In this document: positions 9,462 through 43,330 of the stretch, piece by piece
How positions within the stretch are numbered: position 1 is the stretch's first letter
Layout: each line of letters opens with the position of its first letter
IMG/VR virus record: IMGVR_UViG_3300028048_000050
Location: 19,494-83,493 of that record
Length of the DNA: 64,000 bases
Source: a virus
Taxonomy: Duplodnaviria; Heunggongvirae; Uroviricota; Caudoviricetes
Direction: 5' to 3' (one strand)
Notes under the pieces: generated by a model
The model's input: the letters and a program-made list of their open reading frames with translations, nothing else
Databases searched by the model: none
Told to the model about the DNA's origin: nothing
Made by a program: the position numbers and the translations under genes

Positions 9462-9540
9462 GTGCGACCACTGGGAATCGAACCCAGGTCTTCGGATTAG
9501 AATGTTATATTTACCTAGTCATTTATAATACATTTATCAA
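9462..9540 (-). tRNA. tRNA-like 3' fragment (T-arm CTGGG-TTCGATT-CCCAG plus acceptor 3' strand; no matching 5' strand found)
   Basis: The reverse complement of gtgcgaccactgggaatcgaaccc shows a T-arm. No pairing 5' acceptor strand lies within 150 nt. Confidence 0.25.
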
Positions 9541-10597
9541 AGGAAAAATCATCTAAGTAATGTACTCCTTTTTGTTGATTATTTGAAGGAGGAGTTACTC
9601 TAACAGTCAAAGATTTTCTGCTTCCTATCTCTTCTATAGGGATTAATATACTTTTATTTAATGGTTGTATATAATAAGCAATATAATCTACATCATTTTC
9701 GTATGTAGTATAATGCTTATTCGTAGTATGATTAGTACTACTAGCACAAGGACATACAATAGAATTATTTTCAGTTACTTGTGCACAATATTTTATCTAT
9801 ATTTTGTTTAATTTACCATTAAACTCTGCTATTAAATCATATCTAGCTGTATCACCAAATGGTAATGAGCACTATACTCCTCTTTTAACAAATTCAGCTA
9901 ATATAACAGCTTCTCCAACATTTCCTTTTTCTTTTGAAATCATATTACATAAACATAATAAATACATGAGGTGCTTCCACACGGTACTGACCCGTATTCC
10001 CGAAATTAAAAGTTTCGTGCATCACCTTAATGCTTTGGAAGCTAAATTATCTATCACGGGCTTTACCCCTAAGCTATGGACGCAACAAGAAGAGAAGATA
10101 TACTTCTCTTTAATCTTAATGGATACTTATAGTATCAATTAATAAAGAATCAATAGAATCTGTAATTTCAACAGAATCAATTGAAATAGAATCAGACACT
10201 TCTGATTGCTTAGTAGAATTACCTCCACAAGCAAACATTAACATCATTGCTGCTAATATAAACAAAATTTTCTTCATTTTCTCTCAAATTTTAAATAAAA
10301 ATAATCATCTATTAAATAAATGGAAGTAATCCAGCATTAATTGCAGGACCATACATCTCCATAACACCCTCCATATAAGCGTGTCCAACTCTTTTAATGA
10401 AATTTTTTACTTTTCTAGCCATAATTTTATTACAAATTTAAAGTTTATAATTTAATTATCTAATTCAATTTAAATATATCATTTTAATCTAAAAATCAAA
10501 TGTGTACGAACACTTCTTGACATAGATCAATTGATATAAATCAAGTGAACTAATCTATAAACATTTAAGTTATGTAATATCATTATTTTAGGTTTTA

Positions 10598-10672
10598 GGG
10601 TGATTAGTGGGCCACGATCCCACGACCTACAGAGCCACAATCTGTTATTCTACCTACTGAACTATAACCACC
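10598..10672 (-). tRNA. tRNA-His (GUG)
   Basis: Hand fold: acceptor GGTGGTT/AATCACC, anticodon stem ACAGA/TCTGT, loop TTGTGGC. Confidence 0.55.
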
Positions 10673-10684
10673 ATATAATTATTG

Positions 10685-10756
10685 CGGGGATAGAGGGAAT
10701 CGAACCCACACCGAGTGGTTAACAGCCACCTGCTACGACCTTCGAGCTATATCCCC
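10685..10756 (-). tRNA. tRNA-Asn (GUU)
   Basis: Acceptor GGGGATA/TATCCCC. Anticodon arm GGTGG-CTGTTAA-CCACT. T-arm TGGG-TTCGATT-CCC. Confidence 0.6.
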
Positions 10757-10767
10757 AAATATTTTGT

Positions 10768-10838
10768 ACTCCTACAAGGACTCGAACCTTGATAGCCGGA
10801 TTAAGAGTCCGGTGCATAATCCCTTCTGCCATAAGAGC
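10768..10838 (-). tRNA. tRNA-Lys (CUU)
   Basis: Anticodon arm CCGGA-CTCTTAA-TCCGG. T-arm CAAGG-TTCGAGT-CCTTG. The acceptor has two G.U pairs. Confidence 0.5.
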
Positions 10839-10843
10839 ATTAG

Positions 10844-10915
10844 AGCAAGTAACCAGAATCGAACTGGCATCTTCAGTATGGCAAACTGAAGCACTAACCA
10901 TTGTGCTATACTTGC
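10844..10915 (-). tRNA. tRNA-Gly (GCC)
   Basis: Acceptor GCAAGTA/TACTTGC. Anticodon arm TTCAGT-TTGCCAT-ACTGAA. Confidence 0.6.
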
Positions 10916-10919
10916 ATAG

Positions 10920-10991
10920 AGCAGCATAAGAGACTCGAACTCTCTCCTTGACCTTGGAAGGGTTACATGCTACCATTAACACCAATGCTGC
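10920..10991 (-). tRNA. tRNA-Gly (UCC), tentative
   Basis: Acceptor GCAGCAT/ATGCTGC. Anticodon arm TAACC-CTTCCAA-GGTCA has one A.C mismatch. Confidence 0.45.
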
Positions 10992-11143
10992 ATTAAAAAC
11001 TATAGTATACCATTTAAAACAACTATTGAGAACTCTAGTTTAACGTTGTTTAGAGCTTTGGTACCCTCAACTCGGACATTAGTAATCTTGGTGAAGTTCT
11101 CATAAACGCAGTACACCTCAACTAACATAAACTATAGTTTTTG

Positions 11144-11223
11144 TAGGACTAAAGGGACTCGAACCCTCACTCCGTGGAATATGCTCCTAAGGCATACGTG
11201 TCTACCAGTTCCACCATAGTCCT
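11144..11223 (-). tRNA. tRNA-Leu (UAG), class II
   Basis: Anticodon arm TATGC-CTTAGGA-GCATA. It has a long variable arm and a T-arm GAGGG-TTCGAGT-CCCTT. Confidence 0.55.
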
Positions 11224-11231
11224 ATACCATT

Positions 11232-11483
11232 TTATTCTAAATTAAGTTTTAATCTACACCAATCACTAAATTTCATTGCTTTATCCAAACAGAAAATTTC
11301 AAAATCATTATCTACTGGATCATCACCAGTAATTATATAATATGCGAATCCCCATATTGGAGTAGTTGCAAGAAGAAATAATGTTCCTATAATTCCAAAT
11401 AATAGAGAACAAAAAGTTACTATACCAAATAAAAATCTTTTAAAATAAATCATTGTGGATAAATTATATCTGATTGTTTCCAA
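11232..11483 (-). CDS. small membrane protein (paralog of 17661..17867; shares the YYIITG(D/N)DP motif)
   Basis: 83-aa ORF with a hydrophobic core. The motif is shared with the ORF at 17661..17867. Confidence 0.4.
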   Translation of the reverse strand: METIRYNLSTMIYFKRFLFGIVTFCSLLFGIIGTLFLLATTPIWGFAYYIITGDDPVDNDFEIFCLDKAMKFSDWCRLKLNLE

Positions 11484-11929
11484 GTTAAATTTTCATATCG
11501 AAAAAGAATCTTTTTAGTAGGAGTTTTTTCAAAAGAAGAGATTTTTACAAAACCAAGATATTTCATTAAGAAATACTCTTCTTGTAACATACCTTGAGGC
11601 TTGTGGTCATAAAAAGCAGCAGGAACATTTCTATATCTCTTAAAATATTCCGGATTATCATATACAATACTACGAACTAAATCTTCGTGTTCGCAAGATT
11701 TACATTTATGAATAGTTCCATCAATTTCTACAAATCCTGTAAAAGGAAACCTATCTCCTAATTCAGTTTGAATTGGAATATCCCAAAGATTTTTTAATGT
11801 TTCTTCTGCTTTATCTGCTCTTTTACTAGCCTCTCTATAAGCTAAAGAATAATCTTCATCACCATAAGGAACATTATAACACAAATGTTGTTGATGGTTT
11901 AAAATTCTTTCTAATTTAAAAATATTCAT
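11450..11929 (-). CDS. hypothetical protein
   Basis: 159-aa ORF. Confidence 0.4.
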   Translation of the reverse strand: MNIFKLERILNHQQHLCYNVPYGDEDYSLAYREASKRADKAEETLKNLWDIPIQTELGDRFPFTGFVEIDGTIHKCKSCEHEDLVRSIVYDNPEYFKRYRNVPAAFYDHKPQGMLQEEYFLMKYLGFVKISSFEKTPTKKILFRYENLTWKQSDIIYPQ

Positions 11930-11941
11930 AATTAATTTTTC

Positions 11942-12289
11942 TTAAATTTTTTCTAATCTAACTTCAATTACTCCACCCTGCCAATTAGAGAGAAACATAT
12001 TTCCACCACATTTCTGTGATAACCATAATGGAGATTCATCAGTAAAAAATTCACTTCCAAATAAATCATTTAATTTCTTTTTAATGCTTTTTATTTCGGA
12101 ATTGAGTTCTTTTATCTTATCAGCATGTTTCTTTTTATTAAGAGTAGATACTTCTAATTCAAGTTCTTGTTTATTTTCATTCCATCTCTTATAAATATTT
12201 TCATAATCCGAATGTGCTATAAGATTCTTTACTTGAGATACTCCATATTTAGGATATGTAATCCTATAAATACCTAAAACTTTTTCCAT
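11942..12289 (-). CDS. hypothetical protein
   Basis: 115-aa ORF. Confidence 0.4.
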   Translation of the reverse strand: MEKVLGIYRITYPKYGVSQVKNLIAHSDYENIYKRWNENKQELELEVSTLNKKKHADKIKELNSEIKSIKKKLNDLFGSEFFTDESPLWLSQKCGGNMFLSNWQGGVIEVRLEKI

Positions 12290-12299
12290 ACATTAATAT

Positions 12300-12390
12300 T
12301 TTTAGCGGAGAGGCTGGGTTCCGACCCCAATCCAATAATTTGAACGTGAAGTTTAGCAGACTACCCCTACTCCTTGCAGGTTGCTCTCTC
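12300..12390 (-). tRNA. tRNA-like element, non-canonical (acceptor GGAGAGA/CCTCTCC, T-loop-like GGGTCGGAACCC)
   Basis: The two ends can pair and there is a T-arm-like hairpin. No standard anticodon arm was found. Confidence 0.2.
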
Positions 12391-12517
12391 CTTATTATAC
12401 TTACATTCCACTATCCCGTACAACTGTAATCTTTTAGCCTTGATTGGGTGATACTAAACTATTCGTTGCCTACGGTAACTTCTCCTAATTTAATAGGTGT
12501 TTCCTTCTGTATTAGAG

Positions 12518-12603
12518 CGGAAGCAGAGGGACTCGAACCCACAAGTCGTTTCACCGACCACTTGTTTTCAAGACAAGCCGACTACCAATTATCACATACT
12601 TCC
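12518..12603 (-). tRNA. tRNA-Ser (UGA), class II
   Basis: Acceptor GGAAGTA/TGCTTCC. Anticodon arm CTTGT-CTTGAAA-ACAAG. Long variable arm. Confidence 0.55.
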
Positions 12604-12735
12604 ATTTCTATTACTTTCAATAGGATTTCCTTTTTTAACAGGTATCAACAACTTCCTGTCCTATATCAATAAGTAATAGATTTTCAACAATTTTGTTTTA
12701 ACGTTAAAAATTGTGTAAAAAACGTGTTGAATTGG

Positions 12736-12807
12736 TACTCCTGATAGGATTCGAACCCATATTTCAAGATTCGTATTCTTGTGTCCTTTCCTTTGAACGA
12801 CAGGAGC
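12736..12807 (-). tRNA. tRNA-Arg (ACG)
   Basis: Acceptor GCTCCTG/CAGGAGT. Anticodon arm CAAGA-ATACGAA-TCTTG. Confidence 0.55.
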
Positions 12808-12808
12808 A

Positions 12809-13126
12809 TTAATAAGGAAATAATTGTTCTGGATCTTTAAAATCTTTTAATAAATAAGGAGAAACATAATATTTTCCTATTTTATAATCAGCATATTTAA
12901 CAGTTTTCTTTTGTAAATATACTTTAGTATCTTCATTAGTTTCTGGATATAACCACCAATAATATATATCTAAATCATCAGTTGGTTTATTTCCAAATTT
13001 AGAGATTAATTTAGGAACAATATGCTCCTCTTCAAATTCTACATAATCTCCTCTTTCACCATGAACTATTCTATTATAGCCATTGGCAAAGAGTGTACCA
13101 TTCTTTAAATATATATTTTGTTTCAT
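12809..13126 (-). CDS. hypothetical protein (start moved to the MKQNIYL... methionine because the upstream part of the ORF overlaps tRNA-Trp)
   Basis: The ORF at 12809..13174 minus its tRNA-overlapping N-terminus. Confidence 0.35.
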   Translation of the reverse strand: MKQNIYLKNGTLFANGYNRIVHGERGDYVEFEEEHIVPKLISKFGNKPTDDLDIYYWWLYPETNEDTKVYLQKKTVKYADYKIGKYYVSPYLLKDFKDPEQLFPY

Positions 13127-13128
13127 AG

Positions 13129-13202
13129 CACTCCGGGTACGAATCGAACATACGCTTTCTTGATTTGGAGTCAAGTTACACTTCCAATTATGCTACCGAA
13201 GC
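13129..13202 (-). tRNA. tRNA-Trp (CCA)
   Basis: Anticodon arm CTTGA-CTCCAAA-TCAAG. T-arm GTATG-TTCGATT-CGTAC. Confidence 0.55.
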
Positions 13203-13302
13203 GTTTATAATTACACCTTCCATCGTGTATAGCTTTCCTATACCTTACTTGGGCATTGAAACTGTTTAGCCGGCTTTCCCCGTTGACCAGTGTAATTATA
13301 GT

Positions 13303-13373
13303 TGGGCAATCTAGAGTCGAACTAGAATCTAAAGTTTTTCAGACTTCCGCATTGACCACCTCTGCCATTACCC
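13303..13373 (-). tRNA. tRNA-Phe (GAA)
   Basis: Acceptor GGGTAAT/ATTGCCC (perfect). Anticodon arm GAAGT-CTGAAAA-ACTTT. T-arm TCTAG-TTCGACT-CTAGA. Confidence 0.6.
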
Positions 13374-13582
13374 AATATTACGTAGATGTATCCATACCAT
13401 CTACTTATCCTTTTTTAGTTAGTTTTTCTTATAGATTCAAAAACTACCTACGGCGATTTCCTTTCCTTCAAAAAACTCATTAACATTCGGTAACACGGAT
13501 CCTTAGTACCTATCACTTCTTATAGCCAAGTGAGAATCACTATAACAGCATTAATGTCTCGTTACCAGACAAGTTTGGATAG

Positions 13583-13664
13583 TGGGAAGAAGAGGACTCG
13601 AACCTCTGAACCTCGAAAGGAGGAGATTTACAGTCTCCAGCAATTGCCACTATGCGACCTTCCC
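13583..13664 (-). tRNA. tRNA-Tyr (GUA), class II
   Basis: Anticodon arm GGAGA-CTGTAAA-TCTCC. Long variable arm. T-arm AGAGG-TTCGAGT-CCTCT. Confidence 0.6.
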
Positions 13665-14118
13665 AATCTAGATTGTTAGTTACTAAGTACAATCTAGAAA
13701 ACTTATAATCTACCACCTTTCTCCTGGTTGATTAGTACAGATAGAATAAGATTAACAGCGCTCCTATGGAATTACCCAATGGTCTGTCACCTACATTTAT
13801 CTTAAAGATATTGGCGAACCTGACTGTAGAATCTCACTACAGAACCTTGACTCCCATCTTGCGACTGTCAATGCTTTATATAAGCTACCCATACTTGCAG
13901 GTTCAGGGTTTCTGATTCTTATTCTTATACCTACTACAAACCCTTTTTCAGTAACACGACAAATTGTATTTTCGAGATTCCTCGATCTTCCAGTAAACTA
14001 CTAAACTAACGGACTATCTTTTGTCGTACAAGATAGTGAACTTACGATTTCCCTAGAAAGCCGAAGTTTCTAGCCTTACGTCTATATAGCATTTGCAACT
14101 ACTATATAGCCAACAGTG

Positions 14119-14191
14119 AGCTTCCTGCCGGACTTGAACCGACGACTTCAGGATTACAAATCGAGCGTTCTACCAACTGAACTAAGGAAGC
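14119..14191 (-). tRNA. tRNA (anticodon loop TTTGTAA suggests Thr-UGU, but the anticodon stem does not pair, so it may be a pseudogene)
   Basis: Acceptor GCTTCCT/AGGAAGC and D-arm GTTC/GAAC are perfect. The anticodon stem CTCGA/TCCTG is non-complementary. Confidence 0.35.
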
Positions 14192-14288
14192 AAAAGGAGC
14201 TAACTCGTAGCTCCAATAATTAAAATTTAAACTATGCAAAAAATCAATTTACATGCCAGTTTCCCAACTAGCTCACAAAATGAAATAG

Positions 14289-14364
14289 TAGCGTAGACAA
14301 GACTCGAACTTGCACAGACTTCATCCCAAATGAAGGCGGATACCTATTACCGTTATACTACGCT
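14289..14364 (-). tRNA. tRNA-Pro (UGG)
   Basis: Acceptor AGCGTAG/CTACGCT. Anticodon arm CTTCA-TTTGGGA-TGAAG. Confidence 0.5.
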
Positions 14365-14371
14365 ATAATAG

Positions 14372-14445
14372 AATCCAGTGTTGGATTTGAACCAACGAAT
14401 ACTTGTTTTGCAGACAAGCCCTATAGACCACTCAGGCAACTGGAT
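14372..14445 (-). tRNA. tRNA-Cys (GCA)
   Basis: Acceptor ATCCAGT/ACTGGAT. Anticodon arm CTTGT-CTGCAAA-ACAAG. T-arm GTTGG-TTCAAAT-CCAAC. Confidence 0.55.
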
Positions 14446-14450
14446 ATATG

Positions 14451-14524
14451 TGGTGGCCGTGGGAGTTGAACCCACTATCTCCAGCTTATAAGGCTGGTGC
14501 TTATACCAGTTAAGCTTCGCCACT
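14451..14524 (-). tRNA. tRNA-Ile (UAU), tentative (AUA decoder)
   Basis: Anticodon arm CCAGC-CTTATAA-GCTGG. D-arm GCTT/AAGC. Both terminal acceptor pairs are mismatched. Confidence 0.4.
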
Positions 14525-14529
14525 ATTAG

Positions 14530-14602
14530 TTCTGACACCTGGGTATGATCCAGGGACCTCAATCTTATCAGGATTGTGCTCTACCTACTGAGCTATGTCA
14601 GA
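14530..14602 (-). tRNA. tRNA-Ile (GAU)
   Basis: Acceptor TCTGACA/TGTCAGA. Anticodon arm CAATC-CTGATAA-GATTG. The T-loop ATCATAC is unusual. Confidence 0.5.
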
Positions 14603-14724
14603 ATATGCTAGGACTTCCTCTACCTAGCTTTGCAGATTTTCCAATTTTGGCTGGAAGGTTTACCTACACTTATGCAGTAGGTCGCACGCAGGTTCTGCTT
14701 AACCTTACCCGAAAAGGATTATAG

Positions 14725-14797
14725 TGCTCGTAGAGGGATTCAAACCCCCGGCACACTGTTTTGAGGACAGCTGTTCTGATCGCTGAACTATACGAGC
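14725..14797 (-). tRNA. tRNA with anticodon UCA (opal/UGA-reading; suppressor- or Sec-like; C33 instead of U33)
   Basis: Canonical 73-nt cloverleaf: acceptor GCTCGTA/TACGAGC, D-stem GTTC/GAAC, anticodon arm GCTGT-CCTCAAA-ACAGT, T-arm GGGGG-TTTGAAT-CCCTC. Confidence 0.5.
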
Positions 14798-24880: not shown

Positions 24881-24911
24881 AAATCTATTAAATTACAAAG
24901 ACATACGTCGT

Positions 24912-24984
24912 AGTTCCATCCAGATTCGGACTGGAGATCTTCACTTTGTAGGAGTGACGTGTTTGACCAGCTACACCATGGAAC
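24912..24984 (-). tRNA. tRNA-Val (UAC), with C33
   Basis: Acceptor GTTCCAT/ATGGAAC. D-stem GTGT/ACAC. Anticodon arm TCACT-CCTACAA-AGTGA. T-arm TCCAG-TCCGAAT-CTGGA. Confidence 0.5.
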
Positions 24985-25003
24985 TATAAAAGAGATACTT
25001 TGG

Positions 25004-25077
25004 TAATCAATGTTGGAATCGAACCAACTACTTTCGGTTTAGCAAACTGATGTTCTAACCTAATGAACTAAATGATT
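25004..25077 (-). tRNA. tRNA with anticodon GCU (AGY-reading) but a class-I fold; a 3'-CCA is encoded
   Basis: Acceptor AATCATT/ATTGATT. D-stem GTTC/GAAC. Anticodon arm TCAGT-TTGCTAA-ACCGA. T-arm GTTGG-TTCGATT-CCAAC, then A-CCA. Confidence 0.4.
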
Positions 25078-25089
25078 GAAACATTATTG

Positions 25090-25135
25090 TGAGTATCTCG
25101 TTGTGGAGTCAGAGGGAGTTGAACCCTCGTCCAAA
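25090..25135 (-). tRNA. tRNA 3'-half-like fragment (T-arm GAGGG-TTCAACT-CCCTC plus TGACTCC); no partner 5' half found
   Basis: Reverse complement of ggagtcagagggagttgaaccctc. Confidence 0.2.
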
Positions 25136-25436
25136 TAGAGTTTATTCTATAAGAATTATACAAGCTTCTGTGTATTTTTACTAATCAGTCAATTAGAAGG
25201 ACCAACACTTCCTTGTTTTAAGACTTTAAAAGAGATCTTTGCTAATGTCTTGCTTGAAACTTTTAATAACTGAGTAAGTTTCCAACTCAGGCAGCCATTA
25301 ATTCTTTAGAATTAAAAGCTACAATTTTAATGTTTAATAAGTCGCCTTTTATTCTTTTATAGGTCTCTCCCTATTGTCAGTGCTTGTTCTTATTACCTTC
25401 ATCTATTGTCTATTTTCCTTTTGACCCCAAGTATTG

Positions 25437-25510
25437 CGGGATGTATGGGATTTGAACCCATGATATCTGCCGTGACAGGGCAGCGCCTTAGACCACTAGA
25501 CGAACACCCC
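25437..25510 (-). tRNA. tRNA-Asp (GUC)
   Basis: Acceptor GGGGTGT/ACATCCC. Anticodon arm CTGCC-CTGTCAC-GGCAG. T-arm ATGGG-TTCAAAT-CCCAT. Confidence 0.55.
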
Positions 25511-25612
25511 AAGTGGAGGATTAACTAGAATCTCCTCCTGTCCTGTATTATGTATGAAAAAATTTTTTGTAAACTAAGAAGCCGTTATGAACTTATCTAG
25601 TATTATTCATAG

Positions 25613-25685
25613 TACTCCCAGTAGGGATCTAACCTACGACCTGAATCTTAGAAGGATCCTGCTCTATACACTGAGCTATGGGAGC
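25613..25685 (-). tRNA. tRNA-Arg (UCU)
   Basis: Acceptor GCTCCCA/TGGGAGT. D-stem GCTC/GAGC. Anticodon arm GGATC-CTTCTAA-GATTC. Confidence 0.55.
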
Positions 25686-25689
25686 ATTT

Positions 25690-25755
25690 AAGATACTAAT
25701 TAAAACCTATTACCTTTATAAATTGTTTTGTTTTAATATTGTAAGTATCTTAACC
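25690..25755 (-). promoter_or_regulatory. imperfect inverted repeat (AAGATACTAA ... TTGTAAGTATCTTAA) directly upstream of tRNA-Arg(UCU); copy 1 of 3
   Basis: Arms aagatact and agtatctt enclose about 45 nt of AT-rich sequence. The same architecture occurs at 26150-26215 and 29448-29515. Confidence 0.35.
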
Positions 25756-25784
25756 TTTAAAACTTGGAATTAGTCAAAATGACC

Positions 25785-25857
25785 GTGGACCCACTGGTAG
25801 TCGAAACCAGATTCTCAGTGTGCAGAACTGAAGTAATAGCCGTTATACTATGAGCCC
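25785..25857 (-). tRNA. tRNA-Ala (UGC), with C33
   Basis: Anticodon arm TCAGT-TCTGCAC-ACTGA (perfect). T-arm CTGGT-TTCGACT-ACCAG. Confidence 0.5.
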
Positions 25858-26064
25858 AAACAACCTTATAGTGAGTAGAAATATATAGTCATTTTTCTAA
25901 TATATAAGGTTCTACTAGATGCTATCTAGGAATTTATTTGGACCTCACCATGCTCGTCACCAGAGTTATTTTCTCAATATAAGCCTACAGCTTTTACCAT
26001 TATAAACTGTTAAGGGGAATGCATCTATCTTTTACAACCTATGCTCCTATAAGGTTGGACTATG

Positions 26065-26139
26065 TCATCGGTAAGGGATTCGAACCCTTGATCTCCAGGA
26101 TGAAAACCTGACGTCCTAGGCCAACTAGACGAACCGACG
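26065..26139 (-). tRNA. tRNA-Glu (UUC)
   Basis: D-stem GTCT/GGAC. Anticodon arm TCAGG-TTTTCAT-CCTGG. T-arm AAGGG-TTCGAAT-CCCTT. Confidence 0.5.
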
Positions 26140-26149
26140 ATATTACAAG

Positions 26150-26215
26150 ATACTAAATCTAATAATTCAAACGAGCTACAAATATGAATAAAATTAAAGT
26201 TGTAAGTATCTTAAT
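26150..26215 (-). promoter_or_regulatory. inverted-repeat element upstream of tRNA-Glu (copy 2 of 3)
   Basis: caagatactaaat ... gttgtaagtatctta. Confidence 0.35.
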
Positions 26216-26882: not shown

Positions 26883-26901
26883 TTTTTTAAATTTTTATTA
26901 G

Positions 26902-26974
26902 TCCCGAAAAAGAGAATCGAACTCCTGTCTCAGCATTATGAGTGCTGCGCTTTAGGCCGCTAAGCTATTTCGGA
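26902..26974 (-). tRNA. tRNA-Met (CAU), elongator-type (could also be Ile2/lysidine-type)
   Basis: D-stem GCTT/AAGC. Anticodon arm CAGCA-CTCATAA-TGCTG. T-arm GGAG-TTCGATT-CTC. Confidence 0.5.
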
Positions 26975-27061
26975 ATCTGTTCCACTGAACATTTTTCTCT
27001 AAAGGATACGCAGTTACTCGTCACGAGCTTCCGCAATTACTAATTAAATATTATTAAGGAG

Positions 27062-27136
27062 TTGCGAGGGTTGGAATCGAACCAACGTAGACCAGCTTAT
27101 GAGACTGGGCTGGCACCATCTCCAGTCTACCTCGCG
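27062..27136 (-). tRNA. initiator-like tRNA-fMet (CAU) with a C1xA72 mismatch
   Basis: Acceptor CGCGAGG/CCTCGCA (position 1 is unpaired). Anticodon arm CCAGT-CTCATAA-GCTGG. T-arm GTTGG-TTCGATT-CCAAC. Confidence 0.5.
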
Positions 27137-28749: not shown

Positions 28750-28772
28750 TTCGTTTTAAAATTGTTTATTTG

Positions 28773-28843
28773 TTGGGGCACCGAGACTCGAACTCAGTCA
28801 AACAGAGCCAAAACCTGTTGTGCTACCATTACACCATGTCCCA
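28773..28843 (-). tRNA. tRNA-Gln (UUG)
   Basis: D-stem GTG/CAC. Anticodon arm ACAGG-TTTTGGC-TCTGT. T-arm CTGAG-TTCGAGT-CTCGG. Confidence 0.5.
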
Positions 28844-28885: not shown

Positions 28886-29386
28886 TTAATTAGTGATAAA
28901 ACCTGAATCCTTTAGAAGATCTTTAACAGCCTCTTCAACATCTAATTCTTTTTCGAGTTCTTTATACTCGTCAGTTGTTCTAAGGAGAATTGTTTTTAAC
29001 CCTTCTAAAGATTTTATGGCTAATTTATCCATAATATCAGGTACATTATTTTCTTTATGACTCTTTAATATTTCATATTCCATAGAATCAATAATAGAAT
29101 CAATCAATTTTGGACTTTTAATAAAACTATTACAAGTTTGTTGTAACATTGGATCAGTTCCATCAATATATACAGATCCTAAATAAGTGTCAGGTTCACT
29201 TATAATATCTGATGAAATACACATACCTGCACCAATAATACAACTAAACTCTGGACCATACTTTGCTTTTAAAGCATCAGCTAAATCCTTTAACCTATCA
29301 AGGTCTGCTTTAATTTCGTCATTTGTATACATACTATCTACTTTTTTAGTTAATAACTGTACCTCGAACAAGAATCGAACTTGCAC
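28886..29386 (-). CDS. hypothetical protein (its N-terminal region overlaps the tRNA-Leu 3' end by about 27 nt, so the true start may be downstream)
   Basis: 166-aa ORF. Confidence 0.35.
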   Translation of the reverse strand: MQVRFLFEVQLLTKKVDSMYTNDEIKADLDRLKDLADALKAKYGPEFSCIIGAGMCISSDIISEPDTYLGSVYIDGTDPMLQQTCNSFIKSPKLIDSIIDSMEYEILKSHKENNVPDIMDKLAIKSLEGLKTILLRTTDEYKELEKELDVEEAVKDLLKDSGFITN

Positions 29387-29445
29387 GTCCTTTTCAGGAC
29401 ATCGGATTTTAAGTCCGATGCGTCTACCTATTCCGCCATCGAGGC
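29360..29445 (-). tRNA. tRNA-Leu (UAA), class II
   Basis: Acceptor GCCTCGA/TCGAGGT. Anticodon arm CATCGGA-CTTAAAA-TCCGATG. Variable arm TCCTGAAAAGGACG. T-arm GCAAG-TTCGATT-CTTGT. Confidence 0.6.
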
Positions 29446-29447: not shown

Positions 29448-29515
29448 TTAAAGATACTTAAGATCCAACAAAAACATTATCAACAGAATTAAGAAAACTT
29501 TATTTTCATTGTAAG
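29448..29515 (-). promoter_or_regulatory. inverted-repeat element upstream of tRNA-Leu(UAA) (copy 3 of 3)
   Basis: aagatacttaagatcc ... cattgtaagtatcttgaa. Confidence 0.35.
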
Positions 29516-29569
29516 TATCTTGAATTGTAAAGTTATTAATAAGTTTTTTAAATTTACAGTTAAAAAATG

Positions 29570-30329: not shown

Positions 30330-30448
30330 GTCAGGAGGCCAGGATTCGAACACTGGGATACAGGCACCATAAGCAACGTTAAAATAGTATTATAAGTATC
30401 AATAATGATACTCTAAAACTACTGCGTGTTACCACTACACTACCTCCT
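30330..30448 (-). tRNA. 119-nt tRNA gene carrying a hairpin insertion of about 46 nt (AGAGTATC...GATACT-TATAATACTAT...) after an intact D-arm; the anticodon may be UAG (Leu-like) but the T-arm is degenerate
   Basis: Acceptor CAGGAGG/CCTCCTG. D-arm GTGT-AGTGGTAAC-ACGC. The insertion belongs to the conserved family described in the findings. Confidence 0.35.
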
Positions 30449-30545
30449 GGTAAATTAGGGTGTTTCACAACAGCCTAATCTTAAGAACTTTTCATTCGAC
30501 TTTTTAAAAATAACAACGATAACTAACTTATTGTAACAAGTAATG

Positions 30546-30678: not shown

Positions 30679-30707
30679 TATAAAAGATACTTAAGTATTT
30701 ATTTATC

Positions 30708-30782
30708 GAAGAAAGATTTTCAGTCTTTTGCGTTTACCATTCCGCCACATTTCCAATCGGAAAAGAAGGGATTCGAACCCCT
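30708..30782 (-). tRNA. candidate circularly permuted tRNA-Phe(GAA)-like gene: T-arm plus acceptor 3' strand (30758-30782) sit directly upstream of acceptor 5' strand, D-arm and anticodon arm (30708-30754)
   Basis: Sense order: AGGGG-TTCGAAT-CCCTT CTTTTCC G ATT GGAAATG TG GCGG-AATGGTAAA-CGC A AAAGA-CTGAAAA-TCTTT. The 3' strand pairs 6 of 7 with the downstream 5' strand. No T-arm follows the anticodon arm. Confidence 0.3.
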
Positions 30783-30863
30783 ATTTCATTCATACGAATG
30801 AGATTGTAAGTATCTTATATTACTAATACGTTAGAAAGTTTTCTAAAAAAGGTTACTAAATGA

Positions 30864-30943
30864 TTACGTCAAATTACAAATTTGATGCTCTACCATTGAG
30901 CGATTCTGGCAAAAATGGAGCCCGAACTAGGAATCGAACCTAG
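30864..30943 (-). tRNA. candidate circularly permuted tRNA-Thr(UGU) gene: 3' half including an encoded CCA (30911-30943) lies upstream of the 5' half (30864-30910)
   Basis: Sense: CTAGG-TTCGATT-CCTAG TTCGGGC T CCA TTTTT GCCAGAA TC GCTC-AATGGTA-GAGC A TCAAA-TTTGTAA-TTTGA CGTAA. The reassembled 76-nt cloverleaf is canonical with a 6 of 7 acceptor stem. Confidence 0.35.
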
Positions 30944-31001
30944 AATGTATATATATTATTGTAAGTAACCTATTCACTTATGAAACGAAACTAAAACAGA
31001 T

Positions 31002-33549: not shown

Positions 33550-33625
33550 TGAAGGGTAAAGGAATCGAACCTCTGTCCTCTATGCCGAAGCAGTCGAATA
33601 ATCCTAACCACTAGACGAACCCTTC
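33550..33625 (-). tRNA. tRNA-like gene with a non-canonical anticodon region (a UUCG-type hairpin instead of a 7-nt loop)
   Basis: Acceptor GAAGGGT/ACCCTTC. T-arm AGAGG-TTCGATT-CCTTT. Confidence 0.3.
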
Positions 33626-34685: not shown

Positions 34686-34749
34686 CAATTTGTCCAGAAC
34701 GCTTTCTGGACTTTCAATAACTAAAAACTTAAAACTATGAAATCTACTA

Positions 34750-43317: not shown

Positions 43318-43330
43318 GTTAGAAGACAAA

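What the first reader, a model, noticed from the sequence alone, without database searches (positions are those of the whole stretch)
9462..14797. Large tRNA complement of about 50 genes, including an initiator tRNA, Ile(UAU), C33 variants and encoded 3'-CCA ends
tRNAs occur at 10.6-11.2, 12.3-14.8, 24.9-27.1, 28.8-29.4, 30.3-31.0, 33.5-36.9 and 43.2-43.7 kb, all on the minus strand except the suppressor. They include fMet with a C1xA72 mismatch (27062-27136), an elongator Met, Ile(UAU) (14451-14524), and two copies each of Asn, Glu, Asp, Gly and Phe. There is a class-I tRNA with anticodon GCU (25004-25077) whose 3' CCA is encoded, and several tRNAs with C33 instead of U33 (Val, Ala and the UCA tRNA). 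This is consistent with a phage that re-tools translation, possibly against a host with different codon usage or a different code.
Basis: partly seen in the sequence, partly recalled or inferred. Interest (0 to 1): 0.6.

Follow-up and report, generated by a model that had tools for sequence, protein, structure and literature searches.

The report
Phage tRNAs plus Ro60-linked tRNA mimics
A very large gut or rumen phage carries about 31 ordinary tRNA genes, including a glutamine amber suppressor for its recoded late genes, but about 19 more "tRNA genes" are interrupted or circularly permuted look-alikes built around one conserved RNA helix next to a Ro60-like protein gene, which may explain the "enigmatic tRNA introns" of Lak megaphages.

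Summary
The tRNA complement is real. ARAGORN finds 33 genes and Rfam finds 36 tRNA hits above threshold. All lie on the minus strand except tRNA(CUA) at 52907-52996. "About 50" is reached only by counting non-standard loci. My tally is 31 ordinary tRNAs covering all 20 amino acids, 5 atypical contiguous ones, 10 interrupted ones, 1 fragment pair and 3 circularly permuted ones, plus a tmRNA.

The re-tooling idea holds. TAG aligns with CAA/CAG in homologues, so it encodes Gln. It is concentrated in plus-strand late genes, and the suppressor has a Gln-type body. The anticodon set matches the phage's A/U-ending codons. TGA remains a stop codon.

The non-standard loci are not debris. Permuted acceptor, T and D helices covary across up to 19 related phages. 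Nearly all are tied to a conserved helix, AAGWYACUU(ACAAU) paired with AAGURWCUU, which covaries within each unit.

The same helix encloses the start codon of one protein gene only, ORF 37677-39488. Its predicted fold matches Ro60/TROVE best. One permuted element lies 1.7 kb away and has the topology of YrlA-type Y RNAs.

My best reading is an ordinary tRNA toolkit plus an expanded family of Ro60-linked tRNA mimics. Splicing, or a promoter function for the motif, is not excluded.

The parts
9972..10042 (-). tRNA-Lys(UUU). It lies inside what ARAGORN -i called a 551-nt intron.
   Evidence: Rfam RF00005 39.1 bits
10598..11223 (-). Six ordinary tRNAs: His GUG, Asn GUU, Lys CUU, Gly GCC, Gly UCC and Leu UAG.
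   Evidence: ARAGORN; Rfam 48.7-67.5 bits
12517..12807 (-). tRNA-Ser(UGA) at 12517-12603 and tRNA-Arg(ACG) at 12733-12807. The Arg tRNA has an encoded CCA.
13128..13664 (-). tRNA-Trp(CCA) at 13128-13202, Phe(GAA) at 13301-13374 and Tyr(GUA) at 13582-13664.
14118..14602 (-). tRNA-Thr(UGU) at 14118-14191, Pro(UGG) at 14289-14364 (Rfam only), Cys(GCA) at 14371-14445, Ile(UAU) at 14450-14524 and Ile(GAU) at 14529-14602.
14724..14797 (-). tRNA with anticodon UCA and C33. It is an opal-reading type. TGA is nevertheless used as a stop codon in this window.
   Evidence: 61 bits; anticodon loop CCUCAAA; stop-codon usage
24910..24985 (-). tRNA-Val(UAC) with C33.
24992..25099 (-). Helix-flanked cassette. 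GAGATACTC-ACAAT is followed by a class-I tRNA with anticodon GCU and encoded CCA (25001-25077), then AAGTATCTC.
25101..25428 (-). tmRNA. It has a G3:U70 pair, and its tag reading frame ends ...NSKELMAA followed by TGA.
   Evidence: Rfam RF00023 32.7 bits, E 1.3e-11, below the gathering score; sequence
25436..25857 (-). tRNA-Asp(GUC) at 25436-25510, Arg(UCU) at 25612-25685 and Ala(UGC, with C33) at 25785-25857.
25690..25751 (-). Helix unit with a short 44-nt payload. It ends 4 nt before tRNA-Arg(UCU).
26064..26139 (-). tRNA-Glu(UUC).
26147..26212 (-). Helix unit with a short 48-nt payload. It ends 6-7 nt before tRNA-Glu.
26901..27136 (-). tRNA-Met(CAU) at 26901-26974 and an initiator-like tRNA(CAU) with a C1xA72 mismatch at 27061-27136.
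28772..28843 (-). tRNA-Gln(UUG).
29359..29445 (-). tRNA-Leu(UAA).
29451..29521 (-). Helix unit with a short 53-nt payload. It ends 5 nt before tRNA-Leu(UAA).
30331..30449 (-). Interrupted tRNA-like gene. ARAGORN -i reads anticodon UUA, a long variable arm and a 36-nt insert after the 5' strand of the anticodon stem. The insert carries the hairpin AGTATC..GATACT followed by TATAAT. It probably corresponds to the "TTA suppressor" tRNA reported in all Lak genomes.
   Evidence: Crisci 2021, PMC8346664
30547..30678 (-). Interrupted tRNA-like gene with a 7/7 acceptor stem. The insert follows the D arm and carries the motif. The anticodon loop reads CAU.
30684..30816 (-). Permuted unit B1. The order is AAGATACTT-ACAAT, T arm plus 3' acceptor strand (30786-30759), 3 nt, then 5' acceptor strand plus a Leu-like D arm plus an anticodon arm reading GAA (30754-30700), then AAGTATCTT.
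30850..30971 (-). Permuted unit B2, a tRNA-Thr(UGU) mimic. The order is AGGTTACTT-ACAAT, T arm, 3' acceptor strand, U-CCA, UUUUU, 5' acceptor strand, D arm, anticodon arm, then TAGTAACCT.
   Evidence: Covariation in 7 phages: 95% of cells paired and 5 of 7 acceptor pairs changed on both sides. Sub-threshold YrlA hit, 26.7 bits.
33550..33625 (-). tRNA-like gene whose anticodon arm is replaced by a UUCG-tetraloop hairpin, so it has no anticodon.
   Evidence: Rfam 37.8 bits; sequence
33781..33904 (-). Interrupted tRNA-like gene. The D loop carries an insert with the hairpin TAGTAACTT/AAGTTACTT followed by ACAAT.
34103..34211 (-). Interrupted tRNA-like gene with anticodon GUC (Asp type) and a 40-nt D-loop insert. 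It is conserved in 5 phages with acceptor covariation. The anticodon differs among them (GUC, GCU, AUC).
   Evidence: Rfam 50.7 bits
34289..34412 (-). Interrupted tRNA-like gene with a D-loop insert and an encoded A-CCA. The anticodon varies among orthologues (AUG, GUU, GCU).
34567..34686 (-). Interrupted tRNA-like gene with a D-loop insert carrying the hairpin AGTAAC-tcaa-GTTACT followed by TACAAT. The anticodon loop reads GAU.
34759..34882 (-). Interrupted tRNA-like gene with the insert after the D arm and an 8-nt anticodon loop. A motif-2 hairpin lies upstream of it.
35016..35129 (-). Interrupted tRNA-like gene with a 38-nt insert in the anticodon region. This insert lacks motif 1.
   Evidence: Rfam 33.9 bits
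35145..35262 (-). Interrupted tRNA-like gene with a D-loop insert carrying the motif.
35268..35374 (-). Helix-flanked cassette. AAGATACTT-ATAAT is followed by tRNA with anticodon UUC (35281-35353), then TAGTATCTT.
35403..35480 (-). tRNA-like gene with a 12-13-nt anticodon loop containing AAUUCUAGG. It is conserved in L002 with acceptor covariation.
   Evidence: Rfam 38.3 bits
35557..35627 (-). tRNA-like gene with a shortened or atypical anticodon loop. The L002 orthologue has G33 and reads CCA.
   Evidence: Rfam 60 bits, with 2 loop deletions
35631..35990 (-). Permuted element P1, which has YrlA-like topology. In order it has a conserved structured leader, the 3' strand of the anticodon stem, a variable loop, the T arm, the 3' acceptor strand and U73 (35856-35821). 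A 79-nt linker with a motif-2 hairpin follows. Then come the 5' acceptor strand, the D arm, the 5' strand of the anticodon stem and a 7-nt loop (35741-35703), and finally a trailer. Leader and trailer pair over 16 bp.
   Evidence: Found in at least 21 loci. In 19 sequences the acceptor, T and D helices are 100% paired with double changes, and no shuffle of 500 reaches the observed score. RNAalifold finds the leader-trailer helix with covariation. A YrlA hit lands on the L172 orthologue.
36850..36959 (-). Helix-flanked cassette. AAGATACTT-ACAAA is followed by tRNA with anticodon GUU (36862-36934), then TAGTATCTT.
37677..39488 (-). Ro60/TROVE-like protein gene (603 aa). It has a helical region and a vWA domain with the MIDAS-like motif DDSGSMSG.
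39473..39521 (-). Motif-1 helix around the start codon of the Ro60-like gene. TTTTTACTT-ACAAA is followed by 19 nt, the ATG at 39488, and then AAGTAAAAT at codons 3-5.
   Evidence: In 11 phages the only protein gene preceded by the motif is this one. The partner strand covaries.
43215..43317 (-). Interrupted tRNA-like gene with a roughly 30-nt hairpin insert in the D loop. The insert lacks motif 1. The anticodon loop reads UUU.
43322..43390 (-). Atypical tRNA-like gene with a Gln-like D arm and a malformed anticodon loop.
   Evidence: ARAGORN labels it "???"; Rfam 39 bits
43655..43731 (-). Atypical tRNA with anticodon GGA, G33 and an irregular T arm.
   Evidence: no Rfam hit at the gathering score
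52907..52996 (+). Amber suppressor tRNA(CUA). It has a Gln-type body (U1-A72, A73 and a D arm identical to tRNA-Gln(UUG)) plus an unusual variable arm of about 18 nt. It sits at the head of the TAG-rich plus-strand late genes.
   Evidence: 58.8 bits
9462..10083 (-). A fragment pair: acceptor plus D arm at 10083-10043, and anticodon loop to 3' end at 9510-9462. It flanks tRNA-Lys and a PD-(D/E)XK homing-endonuclease ORF (9497-9967, with 3 in-frame TAG). No group I intron was detected, and the joined product lacks an anticodon stem.

Best explanation
The window comes from a very large, AT-rich phage distantly related to Prevotella Lak megaphages. It holds two different things that look alike.

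(1) An ordinary translation toolkit
- There are 31 contiguous tRNAs covering all 20 amino acids, mostly with U34 or G34 anticodons that fit the phage's A/U-ending codons.
- The toolkit also includes an initiator-like tRNA, tRNA-Ile(UAU), a tmRNA, and a Gln-type amber suppressor placed at the start of late genes in which TAG encodes Gln.

(2) About 19 tRNA-like genes that are probably not ordinary decoders
- These are tRNA scaffolds joined to one conserved RNA helix: 5'-AAGWYACUU followed by ACAAU, paired with AAGURWCUU.
- The helix appears in several forms. It can be a closed hairpin inserted in the D loop, at position 26 or in the anticodon region (the "interrupted" genes). It can be an open-ended helix with a closed acceptor stem (the "permuted" genes). 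It can also be a leader-trailer clamp around a whole tRNA (the "cassettes").
- I infer that this helix is the binding site of the Ro60/TROVE-like protein encoded at 37677-39488. On this reading the RNAs are an expanded family of Y-RNA-like tRNA mimics, related in design to bacterial YrlA. Some of them may be opened by RNase P and carry CCA.
- I also infer that the same helix around the start codon of the Ro60-like gene gives feedback control of that gene.

What is shown and what is inferred
- Shown: the tRNA inventory, TAG = Gln, the permuted and interrupted architectures with their covariation, the helix covariation, the motif's exclusive link to the Ro60-like gene, and the Ro60-like fold.
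- Inferred: that the protein binds the helix, that the inserts are not spliced out, and what the complexes do.
For: Toolkit
- ARAGORN and Rfam detect the tRNAs.
- Codon usage shows ATA at 30-37, AGA at 21-32, TTA at 36-44 and CAA at 20-39 per 1000 codons, each with a matching isoacceptor.
- TAG aligns with CAA/CAG. The TAG distribution separates early from late genes.
- The suppressor body is Gln-like.

The non-standard loci are functional RNAs
- P1 is present at the same position in at least 21 loci. In 19 distinct sequences the upstream 3' acceptor strand pairs with the downstream 5' strand in 100% of cells. 5 of 7 pairs changed on both sides. The whole structure is 93% paired against 74.5% in shuffles, with 0 of 500 shuffles reaching it. 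Slid controls give 38-54%.
- The permuted Thr(UGU) unit is 95% paired in 7 phages.
- The D-loop-interrupted Asp-type gene keeps its insert and shows acceptor covariation in 5 phages.

The helix
- Among 138 sites defined only by the constant part of the motif, the variable 5-mer finds a perfect partner downstream in AAGAT 28/28, AAGTT 12/15, GAGAT 5/5, AGGAT 5/5, AGGTT 4/4 and AAGTC 2/2. The rate for non-cognate partners is 1.0%.
- U.G wobbles occur on the sense strand.

Link to Ro60
- Of 193 motif sites, 12 precede an ORF of at least 100 aa, and 11 of those 12 are orthologues of ORF 37677-39488.
- The partner strand lies within the first ~20 codons and covaries.
- P1 lies 1.7 kb away on the same strand and has the YrlA order: stem, V loop, T arm, acceptor hairpin, D arm, stem. 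Sub-threshold YrlA hits of 26.7-30.3 bits fall on permuted elements.
- Chen et al. 2014 (PMC4201824) found YrlA within 4 kb of Ro60 and on the same strand in bacteria and 22 phages. They also showed that M. smegmatis YrlA, which has a 7-bp acceptor stem, is cut by RNase P and receives CCA.

Anticodon loops
- In the non-standard genes they vary among orthologues or are malformed. P1 reads GAA, UUU, UCU, UAA, UAU and others. Cassette orthologues read UUC versus UUG.
Against: - No binding or expression data exist.
- The YrlA covariance model scores far below its gathering score of 69 bits.
- The YrlA/Ro60 motif GNCGAAN0-1G is absent. The nearest match is GACGAC in some P1 leaders.
- The Ro60 fold match has low TM scores (0.32-0.36) and 10-12% identity. 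Pfam TROVE was not detected.
- In P1 the leader-trailer helix is only partly the same sequence as the unit helix.
- The permuted Thr(UGU) unit keeps a strictly conserved anticodon loop and an encoded U-CCA. That would equally fit a real two-piece or spliced tRNA.
- The motif ends in TACAAT and sits 4-20 nt upstream of RNA or ORF starts, as a promoter would.
- Three interrupted genes lack the motif altogether.
Confidence: 0.5

Rival explanations
1. The interrupted and permuted loci are true tRNA genes with a new kind of intron. The conserved helix plus ACAAU marks the cut sites. A phage or host endonuclease and an RNA ligase (RtcB or Rnl type) remove the insert. For permuted genes the same enzymes circularise the precursor, and RNase P and 3' trimming then open the acceptor end. 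The products decode codons. This extends the published reading of "tRNA introns" in Lak phages.
For: - Devoto 2019 (PMC6784885) and Crisci 2021 (PMC8346664) annotate introns in Lak tRNAs, including a universal UUA tRNA. Its counterpart here, 30331-30449, has the insert between the stem and the loop of the anticodon arm, which would block decoding unless it is removed.
- The same helix is a hairpin in colinear genes and a long-range helix in permuted genes. That is the relation seen between intron-containing and permuted tRNA genes of Cyanidioschyzon, which share one splicing motif (own knowledge).
- The permuted Thr(UGU) unit has a conserved anticodon loop and an encoded CCA.
- Jumbo phages often encode RNA ligases (Iyer 2021, PMC7824862).
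Against: - No ligase or splicing endonuclease was found among the 27 window ORFs scanned.
- No group I intron was detected.
- The helix is a continuous 9-bp stem, not a bulge-helix-bulge.
- The distance from the helix to the exon boundary is not fixed (4 to about 20 nt).
- Anticodons vary among orthologues, and several loops have 5, 8 or 12-13 nt.
- The same helix also flanks uninterrupted tRNAs and the start codon of a protein gene, where splicing makes no sense.
Confidence: 0.25
2. The motif (A)AGWTACTTACAAT is a promoter for a phage-directed RNA polymerase, and the complementary AAGTWWCTT plus a T-run is its terminator. Cassettes are then single transcription units. "Interrupted" and "permuted" genes are split tRNAs whose halves are made as separate transcripts and assemble in trans.
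For: - The motif is a compact, highly conserved 14-mer ending in a -10-like TACAAT.
- It lies 4-20 nt upstream of tRNA 5' ends, of 3' halves, and of the ATG of the Ro60-like gene.
- The partner strand is usually followed by T-rich sequence.
Against: - Within-unit covariation of the two strands, including U.G wobbles, implies that both strands are present in one RNA. A promoter upstream of the start site would not be transcribed.
- In the Ro60-like gene the partner strand lies inside the coding region, at different codons in different phages.
- There is no excess of sigma-70-type promoters (55 found against 54.5 expected). This test does not cover phage-specific promoters.
Confidence: 0.15
3. 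The non-standard loci are decaying tRNA pseudogenes and fragments. They were produced by homing endonucleases, duplications and a small mobile inverted-repeat element, and they have no function.
For: - Two homing-endonuclease genes sit among the tRNAs: PD-(D/E)XK at 9497-9967 and GIY-YIG at 26247-26882.
- The fragment pair 9462-10083 lacks an anticodon stem.
- Several loci have mismatched stems or aberrant loops.
Against: - Compensatory changes maintain the acceptor, T, D and anticodon stems and the helix across phages whose neighbouring protein is only 49-88% identical.
- Inserts are retained at the same position with diverged sequence.
- Independent assemblies from many samples share the architecture.
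Confidence: 0.05

Closest known systems
tRNA complement, TAG-to-Gln recoding and "enigmatic tRNA introns" of Prevotella Lak megaphages (Devoto et al. 2019, PMC6784885; Crisci et al. 2021, PMC8346664; Borges et al. 2021 preprint 10.1101/2021.08.26.457843)
   Same: - The genome is AT-rich and very large.
- It has dozens of clustered tRNAs and a CUA suppressor.
- TAG is used as Gln, mainly in late or structural genes, and early regions are TAG-free.
- Some tRNAs carry inserts, including a UUA-type one, and a tRNA sits inside an apparent "intron".
   Different: - The window is only distantly related to Lak: about 70% identity over 200 nt of one gene, and 30% GC against 26%.
- The papers I searched do not report permuted genes, the conserved helix, its link to a Ro60-like gene, or the variability of anticodons.
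YrlA-type bacterial and phage Y RNAs with their Ro60 (Rsr/TROVE) partner (Chen et al. 2014, PMC4201824; Rfam RF02553)
   Same: - The tRNA-like module has the order V loop, T arm, acceptor hairpin, D arm, closed by a stem made from the 5' and 3' regions.
- It is encoded within 4 kb of a Ro60-like gene and on the same strand.
- It has a 7-bp acceptor stem that could be opened by RNase P, with CCA encoded or added.
- More than one such RNA occurs per genome.
   Different: - The covariance-model score is 26-30 bits against a threshold of 69.
- There is no GNCGAAN0-1G motif. A different conserved helix plus ACAAU takes its place.
- There are many more copies.
- The helix joins the tRNA scaffold at several positions (D loop, position 26, anticodon region, variable region), either closed or open.
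- Some copies keep a full anticodon arm.
- The Ro60-like protein is highly diverged, and the same helix sits on its own mRNA.
Circularly permuted tRNA genes of Cyanidioschyzon merolae, some green algae and Thermofilum (own knowledge: Soma et al. 2007; Chan et al. 2011)
   Same: - The 3' half is encoded upstream of the 5' half.
- The acceptor strands are joined by a short linker.
- The structure that flanks permuted genes also occurs in colinear insert-bearing genes of the same genome.
   Different: - Those systems depend on a bulge-helix-bulge motif, the archaeal/eukaryal splicing endonuclease and ligation through a circular intermediate.
- Here the flanking structure is a 9-bp sequence-conserved helix in a phage, presumably of a bacterium, and ligation is not shown.
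Two-piece tmRNA from permuted ssrA genes in alpha-proteobacteria and cyanobacteria (own knowledge: Keiler et al. 2000; Rfam RF04321)
   Same: A permuted tRNA-like domain is processed at the acceptor end into two base-paired pieces.
   Different: - P1 has a normal D arm, G3-C70 rather than G3:U70, and no convincing tag reading frame.
- A separate one-piece tmRNA is present at 25101-25428.

Membership tests
Ordinary bacterial-type tRNA genes | Score at or above the Rfam RF00005 gathering score and/or an ARAGORN call, with a contiguous cloverleaf and a 7-nt anticodon loop carrying U33. | tested here: met
   - This is met for 31 loci. Three of these, plus one atypical locus, have C33.
- It is not met for about 19 further loci, which are interrupted, permuted or have malformed loops.
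Code-15 (TAG = Gln) recoded phage with suppressor tRNA | In-frame TAG in conserved genes aligns with Gln codons in homologues. | tested here: met
   Window TAG faces CAA 14 times and CAG 2 times. Homologue TAG faces window CAA 30 times and CAG 2 times.
Code-15 (TAG = Gln) recoded phage with suppressor tRNA | A tRNA with anticodon CUA is encoded by the phage. | tested here: met
   The tRNA at 52907-52996 scores 58.8 bits and has a Gln-type acceptor stem and D arm. Charging with Gln has not been tested.
Code-15 (TAG = Gln) recoded phage with suppressor tRNA | Release factor 2 is encoded by the phage, as in Lak. | not tested
   It was not found among the 27 window ORFs scanned. The rest of the genome is not available.
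Bacterial initiator tRNA | C1xA72 mismatch. | tested here: met
   The tRNA at 27061-27136 has C1 opposite A72.
Bacterial initiator tRNA | Three consecutive G-C pairs at the bottom of the anticodon stem. | tested here: not met
   The stem is C-G, C-G, A-U, G-C, U.G.
Group I intron in a tRNA gene | A ribozyme core detectable in the insert. | tested here: not met
   - No RF00028 hit appears at E up to 5 in 9300-10250.
- Nearly all of that 551-nt insert is taken up by a tRNA and an endonuclease ORF.
- The other inserts are 30-80 nt, too short for a ribozyme.
YrlA-type Y RNA (Rfam RF02553; Chen et al. 2014) | Encoded within about 4 kb of a Ro60/TROVE gene and on the same strand. | tested here: met
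   P1 (35990-35631) lies 1.7 kb downstream of ORF 37677-39488 on the same strand. That ORF's model matches Ro60 best.
YrlA-type Y RNA (Rfam RF02553; Chen et al. 2014) | A tRNA-like module in the order V loop, T arm, acceptor hairpin, D arm, closed by a stem formed from the 5' and 3' regions. | tested here: met
   The covariation counts and RNAalifold support this for P1. The consensus-structure line of the YrlA model shows the same order.
YrlA-type Y RNA (Rfam RF02553; Chen et al. 2014) | Reaches the family's gathering score of 69 bits. | tested here: not met
   Scores are 26.7 bits (window 30860-30969), 27.3 bits (L172 P1) and 30.3 bits (L174). There is no hit on the window's P1.
YrlA-type Y RNA (Rfam RF02553; Chen et al. 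2014) | A GNCGAAN0-1G motif near the 5' end, thought to be the Ro60 contact. | tested here: not met
   Only GACGAC occurs, in some P1 leaders. The conserved element here is AAGWYACUUACAAU.
YrlA-type Y RNA (Rfam RF02553; Chen et al. 2014) | Bound by the Ro60 orthologue. | not testable with these tools
   This needs immunoprecipitation or gel-shift experiments.
Ro60/TROVE protein | A helical-repeat ring plus a vWA domain with a MIDAS motif, and structural similarity to Ro60. | tested here: inconclusive
   - Foldseek's top hit, and its only hit at E up to 1e-3, is Ro60 (9nfa_A) over the full length.
- A DDSGSMSG motif is present.
- Against this, TM scores are 0.32-0.36, identity is 10-12%, and there is no Pfam TROVE hit.
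BHB-dependent permuted or intron-containing tRNA genes (archaeal/eukaryal type) | A bulge-helix-bulge motif (3-nt bulges around a 4-bp helix) at the junctions. | tested here: not met
   The junctions are flanked by a continuous 9-bp helix of conserved sequence. The single-stranded spacers are unequal: 9-25 nt on one side and 0-10 nt on the other.
tmRNA | A tRNA-like domain with G3:U70, a tag reading frame, and a match to RF00023. | tested here: inconclusive
   - The locus at 25101-25428 matches the full-length model at 32.7 bits, E 1.3e-11, below the gathering score of 47.
- It has G3:U70 and a frame ending ...ELMAA followed by TGA.
- ARAGORN finds tmRNAs at the matching place in L004 and L006.

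The most novel reading that the evidence does not exclude
A clade of very large gut or rumen phages has turned the Ro60-Y RNA system into a multi-copy family of tRNA chimeras. One protein-binding helix is grafted onto tRNA scaffolds at any solvent-exposed position, either closed (seen as an "intron") or open (seen as a permuted gene). On this reading the long-unexplained "introns" of Lak-type phage tRNAs are not introns at all. The fast-changing anticodon loops suggest that these RNAs act as baits or adaptors in a conflict over tRNAs. They might act as decoys for host anticodon nucleases. Alternatively, they might direct a Ro60-exonuclease complex to particular tRNAs. The protein would also control its own translation through the same helix.
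Probability: 0.3. Interest if true: 0.85.

Novelty: new variant of a known kind. Interest (0 to 1): 0.72.

Why it matters
**What is already known.** Large tRNA sets and TAG-to-Gln recoding are established for Lak-type megaphages. That part of the finding adds only a new member.

**What I could not find in the literature I could search**
- tRNA-like genes in a phage that are circularly permuted, with strong covariation support.
- One conserved helix that unites the "interrupted", permuted and cassette forms.
- The link of that helix to a Ro60-like gene.

**If the Ro60/Y-RNA reading is right**
- It explains the "enigmatic introns" reported in 2019.
- tRNA counts for these phages, which come from tRNAscan in eukaryotic mode, would mix decoders with mimics.
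- It would be the largest and most varied set of Y-like RNAs in any genome.

**If the splicing reading is right instead**
- It would be a protein-dependent tRNA splicing and permutation system in the bacterial world.

Either outcome can be tested directly with small-RNA sequencing and one binding experiment.

Tried and rejected
- **Group I intron for the 551-nt "intron" at 9462-10083.** There is no Rfam hit. Nearly all of the insert is taken up by a complete tRNA-Lys and a PD-(D/E)XK endonuclease ORF. The joined exons lack an anticodon stem.
- **TGA reassignment to explain tRNA(UCA).** TGA ends 25 of 88 ORFs, so I rejected it. The apparent gain in ORF length when TGA is read through is no more than expected for AT-rich DNA.
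- **A class-II (Leu, Tyr or Ser) identity for the long-armed CUA suppressor.** I rejected this because TAG aligns with Gln codons and the body is Gln-like.
- **Exact 14-mer scan of viral contigs.** It returned only single chance matches and wasted one scan. Gapped helix-to-helix patterns worked.
- **Fixing insert boundaries by alignment with the uninterrupted Asp and Ile tRNAs of L004-L006.** Those genes are not close orthologues.
- **Sigma-70-type promoter and terminator scan.** There was no enrichment. The test is uninformative for phage-specific signals.
- **P1 as a second, two-piece tmRNA with a mini tag (GCN-YUA-GNN-UAA).** I set this aside. The AGCWTYA element recurs 4-5 times in the leader, where it pairs. 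G3:U70 is absent, and a normal D arm is present.
- **Search for an RNA ligase or splicing endonuclease.** None was found among 27 window ORFs scanned with Pfam or PHROGs. The rest of the genome is not in the window.
- **Direct sequence match of ORF 37677-39488 to solved structures or Pfam.** There was none. Only the fold comparison pointed to Ro60.

Full report
**1. The observation**

ARAGORN finds 33 tRNA genes in the window. Rfam's tRNA model gives 36 hits at or above its gathering score. All are on the minus strand except a 90-nt tRNA(CUA) at 52907-52996.

The individual claims hold up as follows.
- The CAU tRNA at 27061-27136 has C1 opposite A72. It lacks the three G-C pairs of a bacterial initiator and has an odd D arm.
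- tRNA-Ile(UAU) at 14450-14524 is real (53.6 bits).
- The tRNA at 25001-25077 has anticodon GCU, no long variable arm and an encoded CCA.
- C33 is present in the Val(UAC), Ala(UGC) and UCA tRNAs.

Three further contiguous tRNA-type loci were found only by Rfam.
- Lys(UUU) at 9972-10042. It lies inside what ARAGORN -i had called a 551-nt intron.
- Pro(UGG) at 14289-14364.
- A tRNA-like gene at 33550-33625 whose anticodon arm is a UUCG hairpin.

**2. The count**

"About 50" is reached only by adding loci that are not standard tRNAs. My tally is:

| Class | Number |
|---|---|
| Ordinary contiguous tRNAs (all 20 amino acids covered) | 31 |
| Atypical contiguous tRNA-like genes | 5 |
| Genes interrupted by 30-80-nt inserts | 10 |
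| Fragment pair (9462-9510 with 10043-10083) | 1 |
| Circularly permuted genes | 3 |

There is also a tmRNA at 25101-25428 that both programs missed at default thresholds (RF00023 32.7 bits, E 1.3e-11, G3:U70).

The inserts are not in the canonical 37/38 position. They lie in the D loop, after the D arm, in or next to the anticodon stem, or in the variable region.

**3. What the window is**

The DNA has about 30% GC. Genes run on the minus strand up to about 50 kb and on the plus strand after that. The only nucleotide similarity to annotated phages is about 70% over 200 nt to Prevotella Lak megaphages.

The portal-like protein has more than 3000 close homologues in public assemblies, on contigs of up to 361 kb. 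Lak phages are known for 24-56 tRNAs, TAG read as Gln, a CUA suppressor and "enigmatic" tRNA introns (Devoto 2019; Crisci 2021).

**4. The recoding**

With TAG read through, in-frame TAGs are nearly absent from minus-strand genes. They are frequent in plus-strand genes: 17 in the portal-like ORF at 61501-63678 and 3 in the terminase-like ORF. The minus-strand exceptions are three ORFs, two of them homing endonucleases.

In codon-level alignments with two homologous loci, window TAG faces CAA 14 times, CAG 2 times and TAG 26 times. Homologue TAG faces window CAA 30 times and CAG 2 times. So TAG encodes Gln.

The plus-strand tRNA(CUA) sits at the head of the recoded block. It shares U1-A72, A73 and the D arm of the phage's tRNA-Gln(UUG), and it has an unusual variable arm of about 18 nt.

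TGA ends 25 of 88 ORFs, so it is still a stop codon. The role of tRNA(UCA) remains open.

The phage's codons are strongly A/U-ending. ATA, AGA, TTA, GGA, CAA, AAA and GAA are all abundant, and each has a matching phage tRNA.

**5. A conserved helix ties the odd loci together**

The inserts share the motif (A)AG-W-Y-ACTT-ACAAT. The motif is one strand of a helix. Its partner, AAGT-R-W-CTT, usually followed by T-rich sequence, lies in one of two places.
- Just upstream, giving a hairpin inside colinear "interrupted" genes.
- 44-115 nt downstream, enclosing a payload.

The payload takes one of three forms.
- A whole tRNA. These are the cassettes at 36959-36850, 35374-35268 and 25099-24992.
- A permuted tRNA, at 30971-30850 and 30816-30684.
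- A short spacer ending 4-7 nt before an ordinary tRNA.

The two strands covary within units: GATACT/AGTATC, GTTACT/AGTAAC, GTCACT/AGTGAC, AGG/CCT, GAG/CTC and ATG/CAT. I took 138 sites defined only by the constant part of the motif, in the window and ten related loci. The variable 5-mer found a perfect downstream partner in 28/28, 12/15, 5/5, 5/5, 4/4 and 2/2 cases for the six main variants. Non-cognate partners matched in 1.0% of cases. U.G pairs occur on the sense strand. This points to an RNA helix.

A second hairpin type has the same AGTAYC/GRTACT stem with a conserved loop, GGTYTGTGARAATAG. It precedes tRNA 5' ends in the window and in more distant relatives.

**6. The permuted genes are real and conserved**

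Related loci were fetched with the neighbouring DUF7873 protein and with helix-to-helix patterns.

*Element P1 (window about 35990-35631).* It lies directly downstream of the DUF7873 gene in at least 21 loci, where that protein is 49-99% identical to the window's.
- The T arm and 3' acceptor strand come first.
- The 5' acceptor strand, D arm and 5' strand of the anticodon stem follow, after a linker of 20-102 nt.
- In 19 distinct sequences the acceptor helix is 100% paired, with 5 of 7 pairs changed on both sides. The T and D stems are also 100% paired.
- The whole structure is 93% paired against 74.5% in shuffles (0 of 500 reach it) and 38-54% when partners are slid.
- RNAalifold independently finds a 16-bp bipartite leader-trailer helix with many compensatory pairs.

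*The permuted Thr(UGU) unit.* It is 95% paired in 7 phages. It has 5 of 7 acceptor pairs changed on both sides, a conserved anticodon loop, and U-CCA encoded before a T-rich linker.

*The interrupted Asp-type gene.* It keeps its 40-nt D-loop insert in five phages while its acceptor stem covaries.

These loci are therefore functional RNAs. They are not debris or assembly artefacts.

**7. They do not behave like decoders**

Anticodon loops of the non-standard genes vary among orthologues.
- P1 reads GAA, UUU, UCU, UAA, UAU, AAA and AGU, although U33 is conserved.
- The Asp-type gene reads GUC, GCU or AUC.
- Orthologous cassettes read UUC versus UUG, or UUU versus GAU.
- Several loops have 5, 8 or 12-13 nt, and one gene has no anticodon loop at all.

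The permuted Thr unit is the exception.

**8. The Ro60 link**

Rfam gave a sub-threshold hit of the Y-RNA-like family YrlA on exactly the permuted Thr unit (26.7 bits). It gave further hits on permuted elements in relatives, including the P1 orthologue in L172 (27.3-30.3 bits). The consensus structure of the YrlA model runs outer stem, V loop, T arm, acceptor-like hairpin, D arm, closing strands. That is the same order as P1.

Chen et al. 2014 (PMC4201824) reported three relevant points.
- YrlA RNAs lie within 4 kb of a Ro60 gene, on the same strand, in bacteria and 22 phages.
- Ro60 mainly contacts the 5' strand of the stem.
- M. smegmatis YrlA, which has a 7-bp acceptor stem, is cut by RNase P and receives CCA.

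ORF 37677-39488 lies 1.7 kb upstream of P1 on the same strand. It has no Pfam or PDB sequence match, but other evidence points to Ro60.
- It hits the PHROG family "RNA-binding protein" (E 1e-6).
- It has a vWA MIDAS-like motif.
- Its AlphaFold model (pLDDT 73.5) matches Ro60 best. Foldseek E is 2.5e-5 over the full length, and this is the only hit at E up to 1e-3.

Finally, of 193 distinct motif sites, 12 precede an ORF of at least 100 aa, and 11 of those 12 are orthologues of this one gene. There the partner strand lies within the first ~20 codons, at different places in different phages, and it covaries. The helix therefore encloses the start codon.

**9. Interpretation**

The simplest account that covers all forms is this. 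The helix is a protein-binding element, most likely for the Ro60-like protein. It is attached to tRNA scaffolds at exposed positions. Whether it is closed (an "intron") or open (a permuted gene) does not matter for binding, and no splicing is needed. The same element on the protein's own mRNA would give feedback control.

This reading is an inference. I give it about 0.5 overall, higher for P1 alone.

The main rival, at about 0.25, is that these are real introns and permuted genes processed by cutting and ligation. That is how Lak tRNA inserts have been annotated. It is favoured by the insert that splits the anticodon arm of the UUA-type gene and by the conserved anticodon and CCA of the Thr unit.

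A promoter-plus-terminator reading of the motif, at about 0.15, fits its position and its TACAAT end. It does not fit the covariation of the two strands.

Pseudogene debris is largely excluded.

**10. Novelty and limits**

The large tRNA set, the recoding and inserts in tRNAs are known for Lak phages. I found none of the following in the literature I could search: permuted tRNA-like genes in a phage, the unifying helix, its exclusive link to a Ro60-like gene, or the anticodon variability.

There are several limits.
- There are no expression or binding data.
- The host was not identified here.
- YrlA membership fails on score and on the GNCGAA motif.
- The Ro60 assignment rests on a moderate-confidence model.
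- The window covers only part of the genome, so the absence of RNA ligases is not informative.

Noticed in passing
25101-25428 (-): A tmRNA missed by ARAGORN and below Rfam's gathering score. It has G3:U70, and its tag frame ends ...NSKELMAA followed by TGA. It lies between tRNA-Asp and the GCU cassette. ARAGORN calls tmRNAs in relatives L004 and L006.
   Followed up: partly
9497-9967 (-), 26247-26882 (-), 15564-16301 (-): Two homing-endonuclease genes lie among the tRNAs: PD-(D/E)XK PF11645 (E 2e-31) and GIY-YIG. A third ORF is of unknown function. They carry 3, 5 and 7 in-frame TAG codons, although they sit in the otherwise TAG-free early region. They can therefore be made only when the suppressor is active.
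   Followed up: partly
52907-52996 (+): The Gln-type amber suppressor has a variable arm of about 18 nt, which normal tRNA-Gln lacks. I did not examine whether this arm is conserved, removed or tolerated by GlnRS.
   Followed up: no
35773-35747, 35513-35487, 35005-34979, 34913-34887 (-); also L004-L006: Motif-2 hairpins. They have a covarying 5-7-bp stem of the AGTAYC/GRTACT type around a conserved 15-nt loop, GGTYTGTGARAATAG. They end 4-10 nt before tRNA 5' ends, including in relatives that lack motif 1.
   Followed up: partly
35990-35870 (-) and the P1 trailer 35700-35631: The element AGCWTYA recurs 4-5 times in the conserved 165-nt P1 leader and once after the 5' half. There it reads GCN-YUA-GNN-UAA, a three-codon frame. 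Part of the leader forms a helix, TTGACC...GGTCAA. The function of this domain is unknown.
   Followed up: partly
13380-13580, 13670-14110, 14605-14720 (-): GC-richer intergenic stretches between ordinary tRNAs look structured and contain no ORFs. Lak phages are reported to have highly expressed intergenic regions. I did not analyse these stretches.
   Followed up: no
14724-14797 (-): A high-scoring tRNA (61 bits) with anticodon UCA and C33 is present although TGA is used as a stop codon. Crisci 2021 likewise reports suppressor-type tRNAs in Lak phages with no matching reassignment.
   Followed up: partly
about 50000-52500: Gene orientation and GC skew both switch sign here, and cumulative skew reaches its minimum near 50 kb. 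This marks the boundary between TAG-free and TAG-rich genes. It could be a divergent promoter region or an origin or terminus of replication.
   Followed up: no
36019-36810 (-): A DUF7873 protein gene always lies between the Ro60-like gene and P1 in relatives. It is the only part of the window with nucleotide similarity to Lak genomes. It may belong to the same system.
   Followed up: no
31002-32984 (-): A 660-aa SPFH/Band-7 protein with a long Ala/Glu/Lys-rich repeat region is inserted between two groups of tRNA-like genes. L002 has no such insertion at this place.
   Followed up: no
L132 5950 versus L139 9862; L139 12024 versus L132 7031: Orthologous cassette tRNAs in closely related phages differ only in the anticodon: UUC versus UUG, and UUU versus GAU. 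This suggests rapid anticodon turnover.
   Followed up: partly
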